Below, one piece after another: positions 1,252-15,658 of a stretch of DNA of 15,658 nucleotides (position 1 is the first letter of the stretch; every line of letters begins with the position of its first letter). A model generated the notes under the pieces. It was not told where the DNA came from. It made no database searches and saw only the letters and a list, made by a program, of their open reading frames with translations. The stretch lies in the IMG/VR virus record IMGVR_UViG_2721755662_000003, one strand, 5' to 3'. A program made the position numbers and the translations under genes. This DNA is from a virus (lineage: Duplodnaviria; Heunggongvirae; Uroviricota; Caudoviricetes).

Positions 1252-1266
1252 GATATGCGAACAGAT

Positions 1267-1310
1267 ACAACGTGCAACAATGAGCAACAATGTGGAACAA
1301 CTACGAACAA
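1267..1310 (-). repeat. Five direct repeats of ACAA (minus-strand TTGT, mostly TTGTTC/G) with exact 10-bp phasing
   Basis: atACAA cgtgcaACAA tgagcaACAA tgtggaACAA ctacgaACAA at 1267,1277,1287,1297,1307; same motif as arrays at 7899-7949 and 15383-15408. Confidence 0.65.
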
Positions 1311-2651: not shown

Positions 2652-2855
2652 ATGAGAAATCATACCACACACCCGCAAGGGCGGGACTCGCACAACCTGA
2701 ATAAATACATCTGGCGTTTTATCGCCCTGAGCACGGCACAACCGCGCGTGATTACCATTGAGGCCACCAGCGAACAGGAAGCACGCCAGCAATCTCCGGC
2801 TGGCTGCGTGATGGTATTCGCTGCCCGTATTCGCCAGGGGTCACATCATGCGTAA
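2652..2855 (+). CDS. Small protein (67 aa), possibly Icd-like/Ash-like family seen in P4-type elements; paralog of 3088-3309
   Basis: RBS gaggt 4 nt upstream of ATG 2652; C-terminal region KYIWRFIALS...IEATSEQEARQQ...VFAARIRQG mirrors second copy. Confidence 0.5.
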   Translation: MRNHTTHPQGRDSHNLNKYIWRFIALSTAQPRVITIEATSEQEARQQSPAGCVMVFAARIRQGSHHA

Positions 2856-2859
2856 AAAC

Positions 2860-3140
2860 CGCTTGCAAAAAATTATCACGGGGCTGTATGCTTCCCCCGT
2901 CGCCCACATGGCGACCGGGTTTGACAGCCTGAATACATCTGGCGGACAGCCGCCCACATCCGATAAGCGGTTTTTTTGTGTCCGTAAACCTACCCATACC
3001 CGCATTATGGCGGGGCGTAACGGGGGAGCCTTTGTGCTCGCTGGTTTCCAGATGACCAGTCTGTCAACCCTGTTACGTCTCGCCACCATGTTTGACAGCG
3101 TAGTAGCGAGACTCCTTAAAATTCATCTGGGAGCCTTTCA
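2860..3140 (+). promoter_or_regulatory. Structured leader between the two paralogous small genes: nested stem-loops, repeated GTTTGACAGC and GCCCACAT motifs, terminator-like GCGG+T7
   Basis: GGCTGT(2872)...CCCGTCGCC cacat GGCGACCGGG...ACAGCC(2930); GGCGG acag CCGCC (2932-2945); aagcgg ttttttt (2956-2967); CTGTCAA(3062)/TTGACAG(3092); GTCTCGC(3077)/GCGAGAC(3107). Confidence 0.35.
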
Positions 3141-3309
3141 CATGGCTGTATCCGCACGCCCTTATTTTGTCTGGCGCTTTATGCAGTGCCTGACAGACAG
3201 CATTGCAATATTCACCGTTACCGCTGCCACTGAGCGCGAAGCACGTGCACAGCTGCCGCACGCACATCTGATTTTTGTCGCCCGTATTCGTCAGGGGGTA
3301 GGCTTATGA
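3088..3309 (+). CDS. Small protein, paralog of 2652-2855 (start uncertain: ATG 3088 or ATG 3142)
   Basis: PYFVWRFMQCL...TVTAATEREARAQL...IFVARIRQG parallels first copy; the N-terminal half of the 153-aa track ORF is probably not coding. Confidence 0.5.
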   Translation: MFDSVVARLLKIHLGAFHMAVSARPYFVWRFMQCLTDSIAIFTVTAATEREARAQLPHAHLIFVARIRQGVGL

Positions 3310-4562: not shown

Positions 4563-4862
4563 ATGAAACTTAAATATTCTGGCTTAACTGCCAGTGGCAA
4601 CACTCACCCTAAATTTACGCGCGGCGATATTTACCGCGACCAGTACGGCGGCACGGTAATGATTAAGGGCGTGGAAGAACGGCGCGTAACCTACCGCCGT
4701 GAAGGTTACGAATATGATTGCGTGATGCCTGTTTATCAGTTCCGGCGTGATTTTTCTCTGGTACAGACCGCGCCGCATAACGTGTCCACCAGCAACGCCA
4801 GGGCACGGGCAAACATCCAGAAGCTGAAAACCATGATTAACGGATTCAGGGGTAAAAAATGA
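4563..4862 (+). CDS. Hypothetical protein (99 aa) immediately upstream of and overlapping primase start
   Basis: ORF track; stop overlaps primase ATG (ATGA). Confidence 0.5.
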   Translation: MKLKYSGLTASGNTHPKFTRGDIYRDQYGGTVMIKGVEERRVTYRREGYEYDCVMPVYQFRRDFSLVQTAPHNVSTSNARARANIQKLKTMINGFRGKK

Positions 4863-6619: not shown

Positions 6620-6860
6620 GTAATTGCTGTCTACCCTGTCTACCTGAGTAAAGAAAAATACATTTAATTCAGTGCATTAAGTTAGGTAGATAACCTTTTT
6701 TTACTGTCTACCCACTATCTACCCTCTCTACCTGATTTTACCTGAATCAGACAGGGAGGTAGACACGGGGTAGATAGTGGATAAAAGCACTCTACCCCGC
6801 TGAAAGCCGCGCCATTACTGGTATGAGGGCCACTAAGGTAGATAAGGTAGACAAGGGGAG
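6620..6860. repeat. Iteron-type replication origin: at least 11 copies of the core TCTACC/GGTAGA (octamer YRTCTACC) in both orientations with AT-rich spacers
   Basis: tgtctacc at 6628, 6637, 6706; tatctacc 6717; tctctacc 6726; ctctaccc 6791; inverted copies ggtaga at 6685, 6758, 6771, 6838, 6847; AT-rich tracts 6611-6620, 6650-6680, 6692-6702. Confidence 0.7.
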
Positions 6861-6901: not shown

Positions 6902-7180
6902 ATGCACACTTCAGGGAAATTTAATAAATCACTCAAAAAACGCAGAGACAGAACAGAACCGAAATATCGCGCGTTAGACATGACAGAGCACGCTTTAAAG
7001 GTGGCAATCAGAACGATAGACCGCCACGCGGGGGAAGGATACGCGAAAGCACATCCCGAACTGATAAGCGCATTCATGACCACGACGGCGGCAAATTTTG
7101 CCACGCTGACAGAGCGGGAGATTGCCGAAGCGGAACAGGTAACAACCATCAACGTTAAAACCGGAGAGGTGGAATCATGA
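6902..7180 (+). CDS. Hypothetical protein (92 aa), first gene of SSB operon
   Basis: SD gaggggg upstream of ATG 6902; stop overlaps ssb start. Confidence 0.5.
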   Translation: MHTSGKFNKSLKKRRDRTEPKYRALDMTEHALKVAIRTIDRHAGEGYAKAHPELISAFMTTTAANFATLTEREIAEAEQVTTINVKTGEVES

Positions 7181-7587
7181 CAGCACAGATAGCAGCTTAC
7201 GGGCGGCTGGTGGACGACCCGCAGGTAAAACAGACCAGCAAGGGTACACCGATGACGCTGGCGCGTATGGCGGTATCGCTGCCATGCAGCCAGGCACAGG
7301 ATGGACAGGCGACGTTATGGCTATCGGTCATCGCATTTGGTAAGCAGGCCGACTTCCTGGCTAAACATCAAAAAGGCGACGTTGCCAGCGTATCCGGCAC
7401 GATGCAGGTCAGCCAGTGGACCGGACAGAACGGGGAAACGCGGCAGGGTTATCAGGTTATTGCAGACAGCGTAATCAGTGCCCGTGCGGCACGTCCTGGT
7501 GGGAGCCGACGCAAGACCACAGGCACACAGGGTAATCAGCCACCAGCGGGAGGCGATGACCCTTACGGTGATGATATTCCGTTCTGA
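7177..7587 (+). CDS. ssb: Single-stranded DNA-binding protein (136 aa)
   Basis: OB-fold region similar to E. coli SSB (WLSVIAFGKQAD vs WHRVVLFGKLAE), Gly/Pro-rich linker, acidic C-terminal tip ending DDIPF. Confidence 0.85.
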   Translation: MTAQIAAYGRLVDDPQVKQTSKGTPMTLARMAVSLPCSQAQDGQATLWLSVIAFGKQADFLAKHQKGDVASVSGTMQVSQWTGQNGETRQGYQVIADSVISARAARPGGSRRKTTGTQGNQPPAGGDDPYGDDIPF

Positions 7588-7599
7588 GGGGTGGGGACG

Positions 7600-7872
7600 A
7601 TGGTACATGACCGCATAGCGGAAGAACTGGAGGCGAAAGGCTTTTACCGGAGAGCGTCGGCGCGATGGGGTGAAGTCATGCAACTGGTGGAGACAGACAA
7701 GGAACGGCATCACATCACGATGCGACGGCTGGAATGTTCCAGGAAGGCACAGAGGCCACCGGAGCCGCCGGATAACTACGGAGACCTGAAAAAGGCGGTC
7801 GATCGCACTTATGCCGAAATGGGTATGGATGGTGCTGGTAATGAAATATGGCGAAATTACCAGGACAGATAA
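7600..7872 (+). CDS. Probable PerC-family transcriptional activator (about 90 aa from ATG 7600)
   Basis: N-terminal MVHDRIAEELEAKGFYRRASARWGEVM matches my recollection of the PerC/Pch motif; SD gaggggtgggga upstream. Confidence 0.5.
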   Translation: MVHDRIAEELEAKGFYRRASARWGEVMQLVETDKERHHITMRRLECSRKAQRPPEPPDNYGDLKKAVDRTYAEMGMDGAGNEIWRNYQDR

Positions 7873-7878
7873 TCACAC

Positions 7879-7902
7879 AGCCGGAGCAATCCGGCTTTTT
7901 GT
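7879..7902 (+). terminator. Rho-independent terminator: AGCCGGA-GCAA-TCCGGCT then TTTTTGT
   Basis: 7-bp GC-rich stem, GNRA-type tetraloop, T-run immediately 3'. Confidence 0.75.
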
Positions 7903-7949
7903 CATGTTTTGTAAATTATTTGTTCGTGGTTGTTCCACGTTGTTCACTG
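7899..7949 (+). repeat. Five 10/11-bp-phased TTGT repeats (ttgtca, ttgtaa, ttgttc, ttgttc, ttgttc) upstream of the capsid operon
   Basis: TTGT at 7899, 7909, 7920, 7930, 7940; same motif as 1267-1310 (opposite strand) and 15383-15408. Confidence 0.65.
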
Positions 7950-8000
7950 AGCGGATCGGCATATTTTACCCGAACTGAATCATGATTATTCTCGCCCGTG

Positions 8001-8158
8001 GTGCCAGGACGCTGGGGCCACTTTTCCGCCTGTTAATGTTCTCGCCAATATTCATTACCAGGCGGGAAAACGATCGGTGCGATTGCTGATTTCCTTATGA
8101 AAAACGGTTGAGTTTTTGCCGCGTCCTGGAGTTCCTTACTTAACCCCAGGACTTTTTT
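8001..8158 (+). promoter_or_regulatory. Structured untranslated leader of the capsid operon: nested inverted repeats and a hairpin plus T7 run ending 2 nt before the capsid ATG; no SD
   Basis: TTTTCCGCCTG(8022-8032)/CAGGCGGGAAAA(8059-8070); CCAGGACGC(8004-8012)/GCGTCCTGG(8121-8129); TCCTGG(8124-8129)/CCAGGA(8146-8151) followed by CTTTTTTTA. Confidence 0.4.
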
Positions 8159-8159
8159 T

Positions 8160-9317
8160 ATGCCGAGAATAATCGAATTACGCCAGCAGAAAACCGCCAT
8201 TAAAAATCAGATGCGCGACATGCTGGAGAACGCGGAAAAAGAAAACCGCAGTCTTAACGATGCTGAGGGCGCAAAATTTGACGAATTACGCGCTAAAGCT
8301 GAATCCCTCGATAAAGACATTTCCCGCCTTGAAGCCATTGCAGACGAAGAGCGCAGCAAGCCAGGTAAAAGCAGTCAGACCACTGACCCAGCCGAACTAC
8401 GTCACTACATTCTGACAGGTGAAACCCGCGCATTAAGTACAGGCGTTCCCGCTGATGGTGGTTATACCGTTATCCCCGAACTGAACACCGAAATCATGCG
8501 AATGCTGACGGATGAATCCACCATGCGCCGCATCTGTACCGTGAAGAAAATCAGCAGCAACGAGTTTAAGCAGCTTGTTTCCGCTGGCGGTGCGACCGTT
8601 AACCACGGTGAAGAGGGTAAGGCACGCGAACAGACCAGCACCCCGCAGATTAACGAGGTGAGCATTAAGCTGTATCCGGTCTATGCGTACCCGCGCACCA
8701 CGCAGGAAATCGTGGATTTTTCCGATGTGGACATCCTTTCATGGCTGACGGGCGAGATTGGCGACAACTTCACGGAAACCGAAGAAAGCGATCTGGTTGT
8801 GGGCGACGGTGACAAAAAAGCAAAAGGCTTTTTATCCGTACCCCGTGCAGAGAAGAACGACAAAGAGCGTGATTTTGGTACGTTGCAGGTAATTAAACCT
8901 TCCGAATCTCTGGCGTGGACATCTGCGGACCCGCTGATCGACCTGAAATTTGCATTACGTAAAAAATACCGCAAAAACGCGGTCTGGGTGGTTAACTCCA
9001 CGACGGCGGCAAAACTTCAGAAGGTGAAGAACGCGAACGGTGATTACATCTGGCGCGACCGTTTACAGGCGGGTGATCCTGATACGTTACTGGGCCTTCC
9101 GGTCGAATATCTGGAGTTTATGCCGGATAACGTTATTGCCCTGGGTGACTTCAAACGCGGTTACTACATTGTTGATCACGAAACAGGTGTTCGCACCAGA
9201 CCGGACAACCTCACAGAGCCGGGCTTCATCAAAATTTTCACGCAGAAATATTTAGGCGGTGGCGTGGTGGATTCGAACGCGATCAAGATTCTGGAACTGC
9301 CACAGGACGACGATTAA
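8160..9317 (+). CDS. Major capsid protein, HK97 fold, with N-terminal coiled-coil delta (scaffold) domain; 385 aa
   Basis: N-terminal 100 aa charged/helical (delta-domain-like), remainder typical HK97-family MCP; same length as HK97 gp5; prohead protease gene follows. Confidence 0.9.
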   Translation: MPRIIELRQQKTAIKNQMRDMLENAEKENRSLNDAEGAKFDELRAKAESLDKDISRLEAIADEERSKPGKSSQTTDPAELRHYILTGETRALSTGVPADGGYTVIPELNTEIMRMLTDESTMRRICTVKKISSNEFKQLVSAGGATVNHGEEGKAREQTSTPQINEVSIKLYPVYAYPRTTQEIVDFSDVDILSWLTGEIGDNFTETEESDLVVGDGDKKAKGFLSVPRAEKNDKERDFGTLQVIKPSESLAWTSADPLIDLKFALRKKYRKNAVWVVNSTTAAKLQKVKNANGDYIWRDRLQAGDPDTLLGLPVEYLEFMPDNVIALGDFKRGYYIVDHETGVRTRPDNLTEPGFIKIFTQKYLGGGVVDSNAIKILELPQDDD

Positions 9318-15382: not shown

Positions 15383-15447
15383 TTGTGTCTATTTGTTCCA
15401 CGTTGTTTCATACAGTGCACCGAACGGTGTAGTCACTGGTGTAGTCA
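15383..15447 (+). repeat. att-proximal direct repeats: TTGTGT/TTGTTC/TTGTTT (15383, 15394, 15403) and GGTGTAGTCA x2 (15426-15435, 15438-15447)
   Basis: Read directly; lies roughly 70-140 bp inside the inferred right junction, where arm-type and Xis-type sites usually sit. Confidence 0.45.
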
Positions 15448-15493: not shown

Positions 15494-15658
15494 TCAATGT
15501 GTTATGCGAAATAAGTTATATATAACAGCAATAAATAATGCGAGAATAAACGGCACGATGATCTCGGCGGCAAAACGGATACCGCAGAGAATAATGACCA
15601 GCATTCCCAACATAATGACGATTTTTAGGCCATTGAGCGTGATGATCGGCTTTGCCAT
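15494..15658 (-). pseudogene. tqsA: Truncated 5' fragment of a tqsA (ydgG)-like AI-2 exporter gene: 46 host-like codons then 8 island-derived codons and stop
   Basis: Minus-strand translation [46 protein letters not shown] then YNLFRITH-stop; the first 46 residues match my recollection of the E. coli TqsA N-terminus. Confidence 0.55.

What the first reader, a model, noticed from the sequence alone, without database searches (positions are those of the whole stretch)
7600..7872. PerC-like activator located directly upstream of the capsid/packaging operon
The N-terminus MVHDRIAEELEAKGFYRRASARW resembles PerC/Pch-type activators, which are known in E. coli for activating virulence loci. Here the gene sits at the boundary between the replication and morphogenesis modules, followed by a strong terminator and the phased array. 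It could be the late activator of the island, or a regulator that acts on host genes (cross-talk between a satellite and host virulence regulation).
Basis: partly seen in the sequence, partly recalled or inferred. Interest (0 to 1): 0.55.

Follow-up and report, generated by a model that had tools for sequence, protein, structure and literature searches.

The report
PchE-type PerC regulator in a cf-PICI
The gene is a real PerC-family regulator, the counterpart of the already studied PchE protein of E. coli O157:H7, carried by a capsid-forming phage satellite. The evidence points to an exchangeable accessory regulator that acts on host genes, not to the switch for the satellite's capsid genes.

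Summary
The ORF at 7600-7872 (+) is real: 90 aa, with a full-length Pfam PerC match (E=4e-43). The window is an E. coli capsid-forming PICI of the EcCIEDL933/OI-51 type. The protein is 87% identical to PchE of O157 Sakai and is annotated "PerC family" in hundreds of genomes, so the gene and its position are already known.

The "late activator" reading is not supported.
- 44 complete E. coli genomes carry a cf-PICI with the conserved repeat array and a related capsid operon, but with ProQ/FinO in place of perC.
- A 94%-identical PchE sits in front of a different, classical-PICI packaging module that lacks the array.
- In 54 loci from other Enterobacterales, perC follows satellite primase/SSB genes and never precedes a capsid gene.
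- Published work on PchE shows it is transcribed with ssb in uninduced cells and falls on SOS induction.

The model is all-helical with no DNA-binding fold. Its N-terminus resembles ANR (Aar-type) proteins, which act by protein contacts.

The best reading is an accessory, resident-state regulator acting in trans on host promoters, probably through H-NS-type partners. The cross-talk idea fits published PchE and EcCIMP1 data.

The phased TTGTTC arrays recur next to int/alpA and near attR, and they track those modules, not perC.

The parts
6902..7180 (+). orf92, a small conserved protein of unknown function. It is the counterpart of ECs1586 and the first gene of the orf-ssb-perC unit.
   Evidence: It is an ORF. 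It matches phrog_1231 at E=2.9e-51 and is 89% identical to the Sakai counterpart. In O157 the pchE transcript starts 10 nt upstream of ECs1586 (PMC7369912, section 4.4).
7177..7587 (+). Single-stranded DNA-binding protein gene, which overlaps the orf92 stop codon.
   Evidence: Pfam SSB match at E=4.2e-17. Annotated as SSB in RefSeq.
7600..7872 (+). PerC-family gene (PchE type, 'group 3'), 90 aa.
   Evidence: Pfam PerC at E=4.1e-43, full length. It is 87% identical to PchE ECs_1588. RefSeq annotates it 'PerC family transcriptional regulator'. phrog_994 matches at E=4.5e-46. The AF2 model has five helices and mean pLDDT 81.5.
7879..7902 (+). Intrinsic terminator closing the orf92-ssb-perC unit (AGCCGGA-GCAA-TCCGGCU plus UUUUUG).
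   Evidence: Found by the terminator scan. dG is -13.2 kcal/mol with z -4.98. In Sakai it is duplicated on both sides of an inserted gene, ECs_1589, which marks it as a module boundary.
7899..7945 (+). Phased array of five TTGT(C/A/T) units at the head of the capsid-operon leader. It is adjacent to the perC unit but not linked to it.
   Evidence: Units start at 7899, 7909, 7920, 7930 and 7940. None of 1000 Markov simulations gave an array of four or more units. The same repeat unit occurs at 1265-1310 (-), at 15393-15408 (+) and upstream of int in L001. The array is present in the perC-less locus L057.
8123..8159 (+). Second terminator-like hairpin plus U7, ending at the capsid start codon and burying the only AGGA. 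It belongs to the capsid leader, not to perC.
   Evidence: Inverted repeat I24. dG is -14.1 kcal/mol with z -4.13. The whole leader 7870-8175 folds with z -4.92.
8160..9317 (+). Major capsid protein gene, the first gene of the morphogenesis and packaging operon. It is listed for context.
   Evidence: Pfam Phage_capsid match at E=1.5e-61.

Best explanation
The ORF encodes the PchE-type (group 3) PerC-family protein of an E. coli capsid-forming PICI.

Shown here or in cited papers:
- It is a bona fide family member.
- It is the last gene of an orf92-ssb-perC unit closed by an intrinsic terminator.
- The predicted protein is small and all-helical, with no recognisable DNA-binding fold.
- The slot it occupies is exchangeable. 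ProQ/FinO can replace it, and extra small genes are inserted right after it.
- Its presence is uncoupled from the type of packaging module downstream.

Shown for the 87%-identical O157 orthologue only:
- It is transcribed with ssb from a promoter next to the origin in uninduced cells.
- Its level falls on SOS induction.
- Over-expression re-tunes the host regulators csgD, flhDC, stpA and ler.

Inferred:
- The protein works in trans through protein-protein contacts with nucleoid-associated or AraC-type regulators, chiefly H-NS/StpA-type partners. This is how PchA (H-NS anti-silencing at LEE1) and ANR/Aar proteins (which bind H-NS and AggR) work.
- It is therefore a resident-state, lysogenic-conversion-type accessory regulator of host, and possibly other mobile-element, promoters.
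- It is not the dedicated activator of the capsid operon.
For: - Family: Pfam PerC E=4e-43 and 87% identity to PchE.
- ANR link: 32 of 42 diverse family members hit the NCBIfam ANR model over the N-terminal 50 residues, best E=5e-7.
- Operon and terminator.
- Exchangeable slot: L057 reads ssb-ProQ/FinO-hyp82-array-capsid with no perC by tblastn, and 44 genomes share this layout. Sakai has ECs_1589 inserted between duplicated terminators.
- Uncoupling from the downstream module: L059 has a 94%-identical PchE in front of a classical PICI module whose leader lacks the array.
- Other genera: across 54 loci, the upstream neighbours are Toprim/DUF927 or D5 primases and SSB. The downstream neighbours are heterogeneous and include no capsid gene.
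- Literature: pchE transcription start, resident-state expression and decrease on SOS (PMC7369912 sections 2.7 and 4.4; PMC6265319). PchE regulon (PMC6265319, PMC7369912). PchA removes H-NS from LEE1 and lacks known DNA-binding homology (PMC4764244). Aar has no DNA-binding ability and binds AggR and H-NS (PMC4983702, PMC5570504). EcCIMP1_025 silences LEE1 (PMC11773190).
Against: - No experiment on this allele exists.
- The PchE phenotypes come mostly from plasmid over-expression. Deletion gave no significant change in biofilm formation (PMC6265319).
- The promoter evidence comes from Sakai, whose origin region differs in sequence from this window.
- The ANR similarity is below NCBIfam's curated cut-off (19.2 against 32 bits).
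- The family's steady association with satellite primase/SSB genes in genera that lack LEE, such as Pantoea, Erwinia and Klebsiella, hints at a role in satellite biology that 'host accessory regulator' does not explain.
- perC-less islands might be served in trans by a divergent perC elsewhere in the genome. I did not exclude this.
Confidence: 0.55

Rival explanations
1. Late activator. PerC switches on the capsid and packaging operon of the island. It would do this either by binding the phased array or by counter-silencing H-NS on the leader, as PchA does at LEE1.
For: - Position: it is the last gene before the capsid leader.
- The leader has only a weak -35/-10 candidate, TTGTTC-16 nt-TATTTT, overlapped by the array. 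The promoter scan found no consensus promoter there. This is the layout expected of an activator-dependent promoter.
- The family member PchA is an activator by anti-silencing (PMC4764244).
Against: - There is a double dissociation. Array and capsid operon occur without perC in L057 and 44 genomes. PchE occurs with a different module that has no array in L059.
- The same repeat unit occurs beside int/alpA and near attR, and it travels with those modules.
- The pchE orthologue is expressed in uninduced cells and decreases on SOS (PMC7369912, PMC6265319).
- A terminator insulates perC from the leader.
- The leader is only moderately AT-rich, at 44-47% GC.
- No DNA-binding fold was found.
- AlpA is the established activator of the PICI cycle (PMC6092414; bioRxiv 10.1101/2022.09.08.507074).
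Confidence: 0.1
2. Satellite-intrinsic nucleoid modulator. PerC-family proteins are core satellite functions, co-expressed with SSB, that modulate H-NS-type silencing of the element itself. They would either keep the resident island quiet, in the manner of Hha, or help it establish or express itself after entry. The effects on host virulence genes would then be side effects.
For: - perC sits after satellite primase and SSB genes in many Enterobacterales genera, whatever lies downstream.
- Only one hit was found among 50,697 phage records.
- Two loci have Hha-family genes in the downstream set, and two have ProQ in the upstream set.
- The PchE over-expression pattern (stpA down, csgD down, flhDC up, eae down) resembles strengthened H-NS action. 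EcCIMP1_025 silences LEE1 (PMC7369912, PMC11773190). This reading of the pattern is my inference.
Against: - perC can be lost or replaced within otherwise intact-looking cf-PICIs.
- ler rose more than two-fold on pchE over-expression, which does not fit simple co-silencing (PMC7369912).
- No interaction data exist for any group 3 PerC protein.
Confidence: 0.2
3. ANR-type anti-activator. The protein is functionally an AraC Negative Regulator that binds and inactivates an AraC/XylS-family activator of the host.
For: The N-terminal 50 residues match the ANR model in 32 of 42 family members. The authors of PMC11773190 proposed this for EcCIMP1_025. In EPEC, perC lies in one operon with the AraC-type regulator PerA (my own knowledge).
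Against: - The score is below the curated cut-off.
- The protein has a 40-residue C-terminal extension with a conserved MGI motif. Aar, the ANR described in PMC5570504, has 63 residues.
- No AraC-family gene is present in the window.
Confidence: 0.1

Closest known systems
PchE (ECs_1588) of E. coli O157:H7 Sakai, in OI-51 / CP-933C / 'Sp7' = cf-PICI EcCIEDL933
   Same: It has the same length (90 aa) and 87% identity. It lies in the same gene order, orf-ssb-perC-terminator-leader-capsid. The leader is 97.5% identical and the capsid gene 98.5% identical at the DNA level.
   Different: There are 12 amino-acid differences. Sakai has an extra gene, ECs_1589, between duplicated terminators. The primase and origin alleles differ, as does the integration site: roxA/phoQ in Sakai against tqsA here.
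PerC of the EPEC EAF plasmid and PchA/B/C of EHEC prophages (group 1)
   Same: [quoted passage not shown] The LE..G.(Y/W)RRAA.RW motif was derived from the family members aligned here; PerC and PchA-C sequences themselves were not aligned.
   Different: Group 1 proteins activate LEE1 by removing H-NS (PMC4764244). Group 3 PchE and the PICI homologues did not activate LEE1 (Porter 2005 as cited in PMC11773190 and PMC6265319). Their genomic setting is a plasmid operon or lambdoid prophages, not a satellite.
EcCIMP1_025, the PerC-like protein of PICI EcCIMP1
   Same: It is a PerC-family gene carried by an E. coli PICI, and it too shows distant ANR-family matches in database searches (PMC11773190).
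   Different: The paper reports about 40% identity between EcCIMP1_025 and the EcCIEDL933 homologue, PchE. It was shown to repress LEE1-lux in C. rodentium. EcCIMP1 is not a capsid-forming PICI.
ANR family (Aar, Cnr, Rnr)
   Same: It has a three-helix N-terminal module and no DNA-binding domain, and there is sub-threshold HMM similarity. ANR proteins act by binding H-NS and AraC-type regulators (PMC4983702, PMC5570504).
   Different: ANR proteins are about 63 aa and usually accompany an AraC regulator. This protein has 90 aa with a conserved C-terminal extension and sits in a satellite replication module.
ProQ/FinO-family gene of perC-less cf-PICIs
   Same: It occupies the same slot, after ssb and before the capsid leader. 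In PICI surveys it is likewise treated as an accessory, host-interaction gene (PMC13612085).
   Different: It is an unrelated fold and function, an RNA chaperone. In E. albertii locus L003 both genes are present in tandem.

Membership tests
PerC family (Pfam PF06069) | The profile HMM score is above the gathering threshold over the full length. | tested here: met
   146 bits against a cut-off of 22.6, E=4.1e-43, residues 1-89 on profile positions 1-89 of 90.
PerC family (Pfam PF06069) | It has the conserved N-terminal motif LE..G.(Y/W)RRAA.RW, the single conserved Cys and the C-terminal MG(I/L) motif. | tested here: met
   L10, E11, R17, R18 and A19 are invariant. D4, A7, G14, A20, R22, W23, C46, A66, M74 and G75 are at least 90% conserved in a 42-sequence alignment with identities down to about 30%. 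The window protein carries all of them.
PerC family (Pfam PF06069) | It activates the LEE1 (ler) promoter, the activity that named the family. | not testable with these tools
   The literature reports that group 3 PchE and the PICI homologues do not activate LEE1 (PMC11773190 and PMC6265319, both citing Porter 2005 and Iyoda & Watanabe 2004). I could not read Porter 2005 itself.
Capsid-forming PICI (cf-PICI, EcCIEDL933 type), the host element | It has int, alpA and a primase-type replication gene with an origin, plus its own capsid, protease, portal, head-tail connectors, HNH, TerS and TerL. It has no tail genes and is about 15 kb. | tested here: met
   Pfam and PHROG hits exist for every one of these genes. 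Iterons lie at 6621-6858. No tail gene is present. The layout is colinear with Sakai OI-51.
ANR (AraC Negative Regulator) family, NCBIfam NF033650 | The HMM score is above the curated cut-off. | tested here: not met
   19.2 bits against a cut-off of 32, E=8e-4. The similarity recurs in 32 of 42 family members, best E=5e-7. This suggests distant homology of the N-terminal module, not membership.
ANR (AraC Negative Regulator) family, NCBIfam NF033650 | It is a protein of about 60-70 aa made of three helices and encoded alongside an AraC/XylS regulator. | tested here: not met
   The protein has 90 aa and five predicted helices. No AraC-family gene is in the window.
Dedicated late-gene activator of a phage or satellite | It is consistently linked with the late or morphogenesis operon it controls, and with that operon's promoter elements. 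| tested here: not met
   The capsid operon and array occur without perC in L057 and 44 genomes. perC occurs with another module that lacks the array in L059. There is no capsid gene next to perC in the 54 loci from other genera.
Dedicated late-gene activator of a phage or satellite | Its expression is restricted to the induced or late phase. | not testable with these tools
   For the O157 orthologue, published RNA-seq, RACE and lacZ data show expression in uninduced cells and a decrease after SOS induction (PMC7369912, PMC6265319).

The most novel reading that the evidence does not exclude
PerC-family proteins are, in origin, satellite genes. They are small H-NS/nucleoid-modulating proteins co-transcribed with the satellite SSB, and phage satellites of Enterobacterales use them to manage xenogeneic silencing of themselves, or of their helper, during residence or establishment. 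On this reading the famous virulence regulators PerC and PchA-C are escaped, repurposed copies. In this island PerC would then contribute measurably to island silencing, induction or transfer, even though it is not the capsid-operon activator.
Probability: 0.2. Interest if true: 0.6.

Novelty: already known. Interest (0 to 1): 0.22.

Why it matters
As a finding it adds little. The gene is annotated, its O157 orthologue PchE has been studied, and PerC genes in Gram-negative PICIs are noted in several papers.

What remains open is why phage satellites across Enterobacterales so often carry a PerC-family gene right behind their primase and SSB genes. This matters for two reasons. These satellites spread between strains on borrowed tails, so any regulator they carry can rewire adhesion, motility and LEE expression in the recipient. 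Also, the mechanism of the family is still unsettled: is it H-NS anti-silencing, co-silencing or anti-activation? The island offers a compact genetic system to test this.

A practical result is that the capsid-operon switch should be sought in the TTGTTC arrays and the two-terminator leader, not in perC.

Tried and rejected
- Solved structures by sequence: only chance coiled-coil matches to PACSIN F-BAR, E about 0.007.
- Foldseek against the PDB: nothing at E<=1e-3.
- Rfam on the whole window: nothing in the perC-capsid leader.
- Sigma-70 scan: no consensus promoter in the leader.
- A Q-like antitermination role for AlpA, by analogy with P. aeruginosa AlpA. I rejected this as a homology argument. 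That protein uses residues up to at least 142 and an N-terminal ring (PMC9371919), whereas the island's AlpA has 62 aa.
- H-NS silencing of the leader inferred from base composition: GC is 44-47%, only moderately AT-rich, so this is not informative.
- Reaching bona fide ANR proteins with the PerC profile: 30 of the lower-ranked listed hits that I aligned are PerC-like, many of them truncated.
- Cluster names: none distinguished PchA or PerC, so I could not compute identity to group 1 proteins.
- Porter et al. 2005 is not held, so its results are cited second-hand.
- Is perC always followed by a terminator? It is in the E. coli lineage, but in only 4 of 40 loci from other genera, and weakly there. 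The terminator is therefore not a family-wide feature.
- The position of the cat marker in EcCIEDL933, and any perC mutant: neither is stated in the cf-PICI preprint. The EcCICFT073 mutants c1499 and c1500 are capsid-like and decoration genes, not perC.

Full report
**1. The observation**

It runs from ATG 7600 to TAA 7872 and encodes 90 aa beginning MVHDRIAEELEAKGFYRRASARW. It begins 12 nt after the stop codon of an SSB gene.

Pfam PerC (PF06069) matches from end to end at E=4.1e-43, 146 bits against a gathering score of 22.6. PHROGs gives phrog_994 at E=4.5e-46. Chance is excluded.

An intrinsic terminator follows at 7879-7896 plus a U-run (dG -13.2 kcal/mol, z -5.0). The capsid gene starts at 8160.

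**2. What the window is**

The genes found are:
- a tyrosine integrase
- AlpA (PF05930)
- a C4 antisense RNA with Icd-like genes
- a DUF4222 protein
- a D5-type primase
- an iteron-rich origin
- orf92, SSB and PerC
- capsid, S78 protease, portal, head completion protein, connector, HNH, P27-type TerS and TerL

No tail genes are present.

This is the architecture of the capsid-forming PICIs described for EcCIEDL933 (bioRxiv 10.1101/2022.09.08.507074). The window is colinear with O-island 51 / CP-933C / 'Sp7' of O157 Sakai. [quoted passage not shown]

The window protein is 87% identical to PchE. The 801-bp region is found at 100% identity in many complete E. coli genomes, where RefSeq calls the gene 'PerC family transcriptional regulator'. 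In strain PCN033 the island sits inside tqsA.

**3. What is published on the close relatives**

- The pch genes fall into three groups, and PchE is group 3. Only group 1 (PchA-C) is needed for ler/LEE expression (PMC6265319).
- The PICI-borne homologues of EcCIEDL933 and EcCICFT073 had no effect on LEE1-lacZ (PMC11773190, citing Porter 2005, which I could not read).
- Over-expressed PchE represses csgD/curli, eae, lpfA1 and stpA and induces flhDC/fliC (PMC6265319, PMC7369912).
- RNA-seq and 5'RACE place the pchE transcript start 10 nt upstream of ECs1586. The transcript therefore covers ECs1586, ssb and pchE.
- A lacZ fusion is active in uninduced cells and drops about three-fold with an SOS inducer (PMC7369912, sections 2.7 and 4.4).
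- The PerC-like protein of PICI EcCIMP1 silences LEE1 in C. rodentium. Its authors suspected an ANR-like function (PMC11773190).

**4. The protein**

- An AlphaFold2 model built on 17 homologues has mean pLDDT 81.5, above 90 for residues 1-50. It shows five helices: 5-13, 16-27, 33-50, 60-74 and 80-89.
- Foldseek against the PDB finds nothing significant.
- The NCBIfam ANR model matches residues 7-52 at E=8e-4, below its cut-off. The same weak match recurs in 32 of 42 diverse family members, best E=5e-7.
- I read this as distant homology of the N-terminal three-helix module to ANR proteins. Those proteins have no DNA-binding ability and act by binding AggR-type activators and H-NS (PMC4983702, PMC5570504).
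- A full HMMER scan of 1.84 billion representative proteins found only 242 family members at E<=1e-3, so the family is small.

**5. Is it the late activator? Test by linkage**

(a) Locus L057 (strain 2014C-3075) is a cf-PICI inserted in a prophage terL gene. Its order is RepA-hyp-ssb-ProQ/FinO-hyp82-leader-capsid...TerL. tblastn finds no PerC anywhere in 19.5 kb, even at E<=10. Forty-four complete genomes share this perC-less arrangement over at least 80% of a 1.66-kb probe.

(b) Locus L059 (O157:H7 strain 1130) lies at the same roxA/phoQ site as OI-51. It has a PchE 94% identical to the window protein. That gene is followed by the classical-PICI module: a 68-aa protein, a capsid-like protein, a head decoration protein and a different TerS. 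The leader of this module contains no TTGTTC array. Fifteen of 60 evenly spaced rows of the genome search show the same partial match, which ends at the terminator.

(c) I fetched 54 loci from other Enterobacterales species.
- None had a homologue of the window's capsid, protease, portal or terminase genes.
- Among the three genes upstream, the commonest Pfam families were Toprim_3/Zn-ribbon primase (9), DUF927 (8), SSB (7) and D5-type primase (3-4).
- The three genes downstream were heterogeneous, including plasmid transfer and partition genes, two Hha-family genes, transport genes and many proteins with no family match. Separate scans of selected downstream proteins found tape-measure and SLT-domain proteins.

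(d) Only one of 50,697 phage records has a tblastn hit.

(e) Between the window and Sakai, perC is the most diverged segment of the neighbourhood. DNA identity is 91.6% for perC, 96.6% for ssb, 97.5% for the leader and 98.5% for the capsid gene. The breakpoint is at the terminator, which in Sakai is duplicated around an inserted gene.

Taken together, perC belongs to the replication-side unit and occupies an exchangeable accessory slot. It is not tied to the capsid operon.

**6. The 'phased array'**

- Five TTGT units at 7899-7945 are spaced 10, 11, 10 and 10 bp.
- A second array of five units at exactly 10-bp spacing lies at 1265-1310 on the other strand, between int and alpA. The two arrays share 23 of 25 nt.
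- Two further units lie at 15393-15408, near attR. Three lie 65-90 bp upstream of int, just outside the window.
- None of 1000 Markov simulations gave even one array of four or more units.
- The int, alpA and att-proximal arrays also occur in L059, which has the same int and AlpA allele but a classical module.
- The leader array is kept at 94% in L057 and L058, where the rest of the leader cannot be aligned. There Int is 41% identical, the AlpA homologues 48-58%, TerS 89% and TerL 93%.

The arrays therefore track the int/alpA and capsid modules, not perC. The layout resembles the repeat arrays bound by excisionase-type regulators such as P2 Cox and P4 Vis (my own knowledge), by integrase arm domains, or by TerS. 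AlpA is the established activator of the PICI cycle and of its own promoter (PMC6092414). I could not decide which protein binds the arrays.

The leader is strongly structured (z -4.9). It ends in a terminator-like hairpin plus U7 that abuts the capsid ATG and buries the only AGGA (dG -14.1 kcal/mol). This suggests control by read-through or RNA remodelling.

**7. Conclusion on mechanism**

The best-supported reading is an accessory regulator that is expressed from the resident island together with SSB. It acts in trans, through protein contacts with H-NS-type or AraC-type regulators, on host promoters.

- Shown here: family membership, operon position and terminator, absence of a DNA-binding fold, the exchangeable slot, and uncoupling from the capsid module.
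- Shown only for the orthologue: expression pattern and regulon.
- Inferred: the H-NS/ANR-like mode of action.

The main rival worth testing is that the family has a function within the satellite itself, managing silencing of the element. This would explain its steady association with primase and SSB genes in genera that have no LEE.

**8. Novelty**

The gene, its family and its place in OI-51/EcCIEDL933 are already in the literature and in RefSeq annotation. Interest is low. The residual interest lies in the unexplained role of PerC genes in satellites and in the arrays and leader next door.

Noticed in passing
window 7899-7945 (+), 1265-1310 (-), 15393-15408 (+); L001 2954-2979 (+): Phased TTGT(T/C/A) repeat arrays with a 10-11 bp period lie at the capsid-operon leader, between int and alpA, near attR and upstream of int. 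The leader array and the int-alpA array share 23 of 25 nt. They look like binding arrays for AlpA (an excisionase-type regulator), the integrase arm domain or TerS. The binder is unknown.
   Followed up: partly
window 7873-8159: The capsid-operon leader is highly structured (z -4.9). It has a long hairpin at 8022-8069 (dG -20.6 kcal/mol). A terminator-like hairpin plus U7 at 8123-8159 abuts the capsid ATG and sequesters the only AGGA. This suggests control by antitermination or translation. No Rfam family matches.
   Followed up: partly
window 2886-2935 and 3003-3090 (+), with ORFs 1830-2855 and 2848-3309: A C4 antisense RNA (Rfam RF01695, 72.6 bits) and its a1/b1 target element (RF03163) lie inside or next to Icd-like cell-division-inhibitor ORFs. 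This is a P1/P7-type c4-icd immunity module in a PICI. In strain PCN033 the annotated Icd-like gene here is a pseudogene missing its C-terminus.
   Followed up: no
window 6621-6858: The replication origin has at least 10 copies of the iteron CTGTCTACC / GGTAGAC(A) in both orientations, around an AT-rich core. Sakai OI-51 has a different primase and different iterons (TAACCCGCA) at the same place, so the pri-ori module has been swapped.
   Followed up: partly
window 4563-4862 (+): This DUF4222 protein is 80% identical to ECs1581 (RgdR), the OI-51 regulator reported to activate LEE/type III secretion (PMC3378721). It is a second host-directed regulator on the same island.
   Followed up: no
L002 9046-9400 (Sakai), L059 10071-10295, L057 10236-10484, L058 8191-8439: A small gene (ECs_1589, phrog_1957, 74-82 aa, no Pfam match) is inserted between perC and the capsid leader, flanked in Sakai by duplicated copies of the perC terminator. 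The site is a hotspot for moron-like insertions. L058 also carries a reverse-strand 157-aa ORF there.
   Followed up: partly
L057 (NZ_CP027447.1) and L058 (NZ_CP121356.1): This cf-PICI lineage is integrated inside the terL gene of a resident prophage, splitting it. In L057 and 44 genomes a ProQ/FinO-family gene replaces perC. E. albertii locus L003 has ProQ/FinO and PerC in tandem.
   Followed up: partly
L016, L017, L018, L019, L022 (Pantoea, Chimaeribacter, Lonsdalea, Erwinia), about 1.5 kb downstream of perC: These satellite-like islands (int, Toprim/DUF927 primase, perC) carry a large tape-measure-like protein (PF20155 in L016, 580-1140 aa across loci) and no capsid genes. L015 has an SLT-domain protein at the same place. 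This may be a different kind of tail-related piracy.
   Followed up: no
alignment A6 (downstream neighbours of perC in the 54 loci): Two loci have an Hha-family gene (an H-NS co-silencer) within three genes downstream of perC. One upstream neighbour is a CaiF/GrlA-type regulator. Nucleoid and LEE-type regulators therefore cluster with perC.
   Followed up: no
window 15494-15658 (-): The right end of the window holds the 5' fragment of the host gene tqsA (AI-2 transporter), which the island interrupts. The left junction lies just outside the window, which begins 12 nt inside int.
   Followed up: partly
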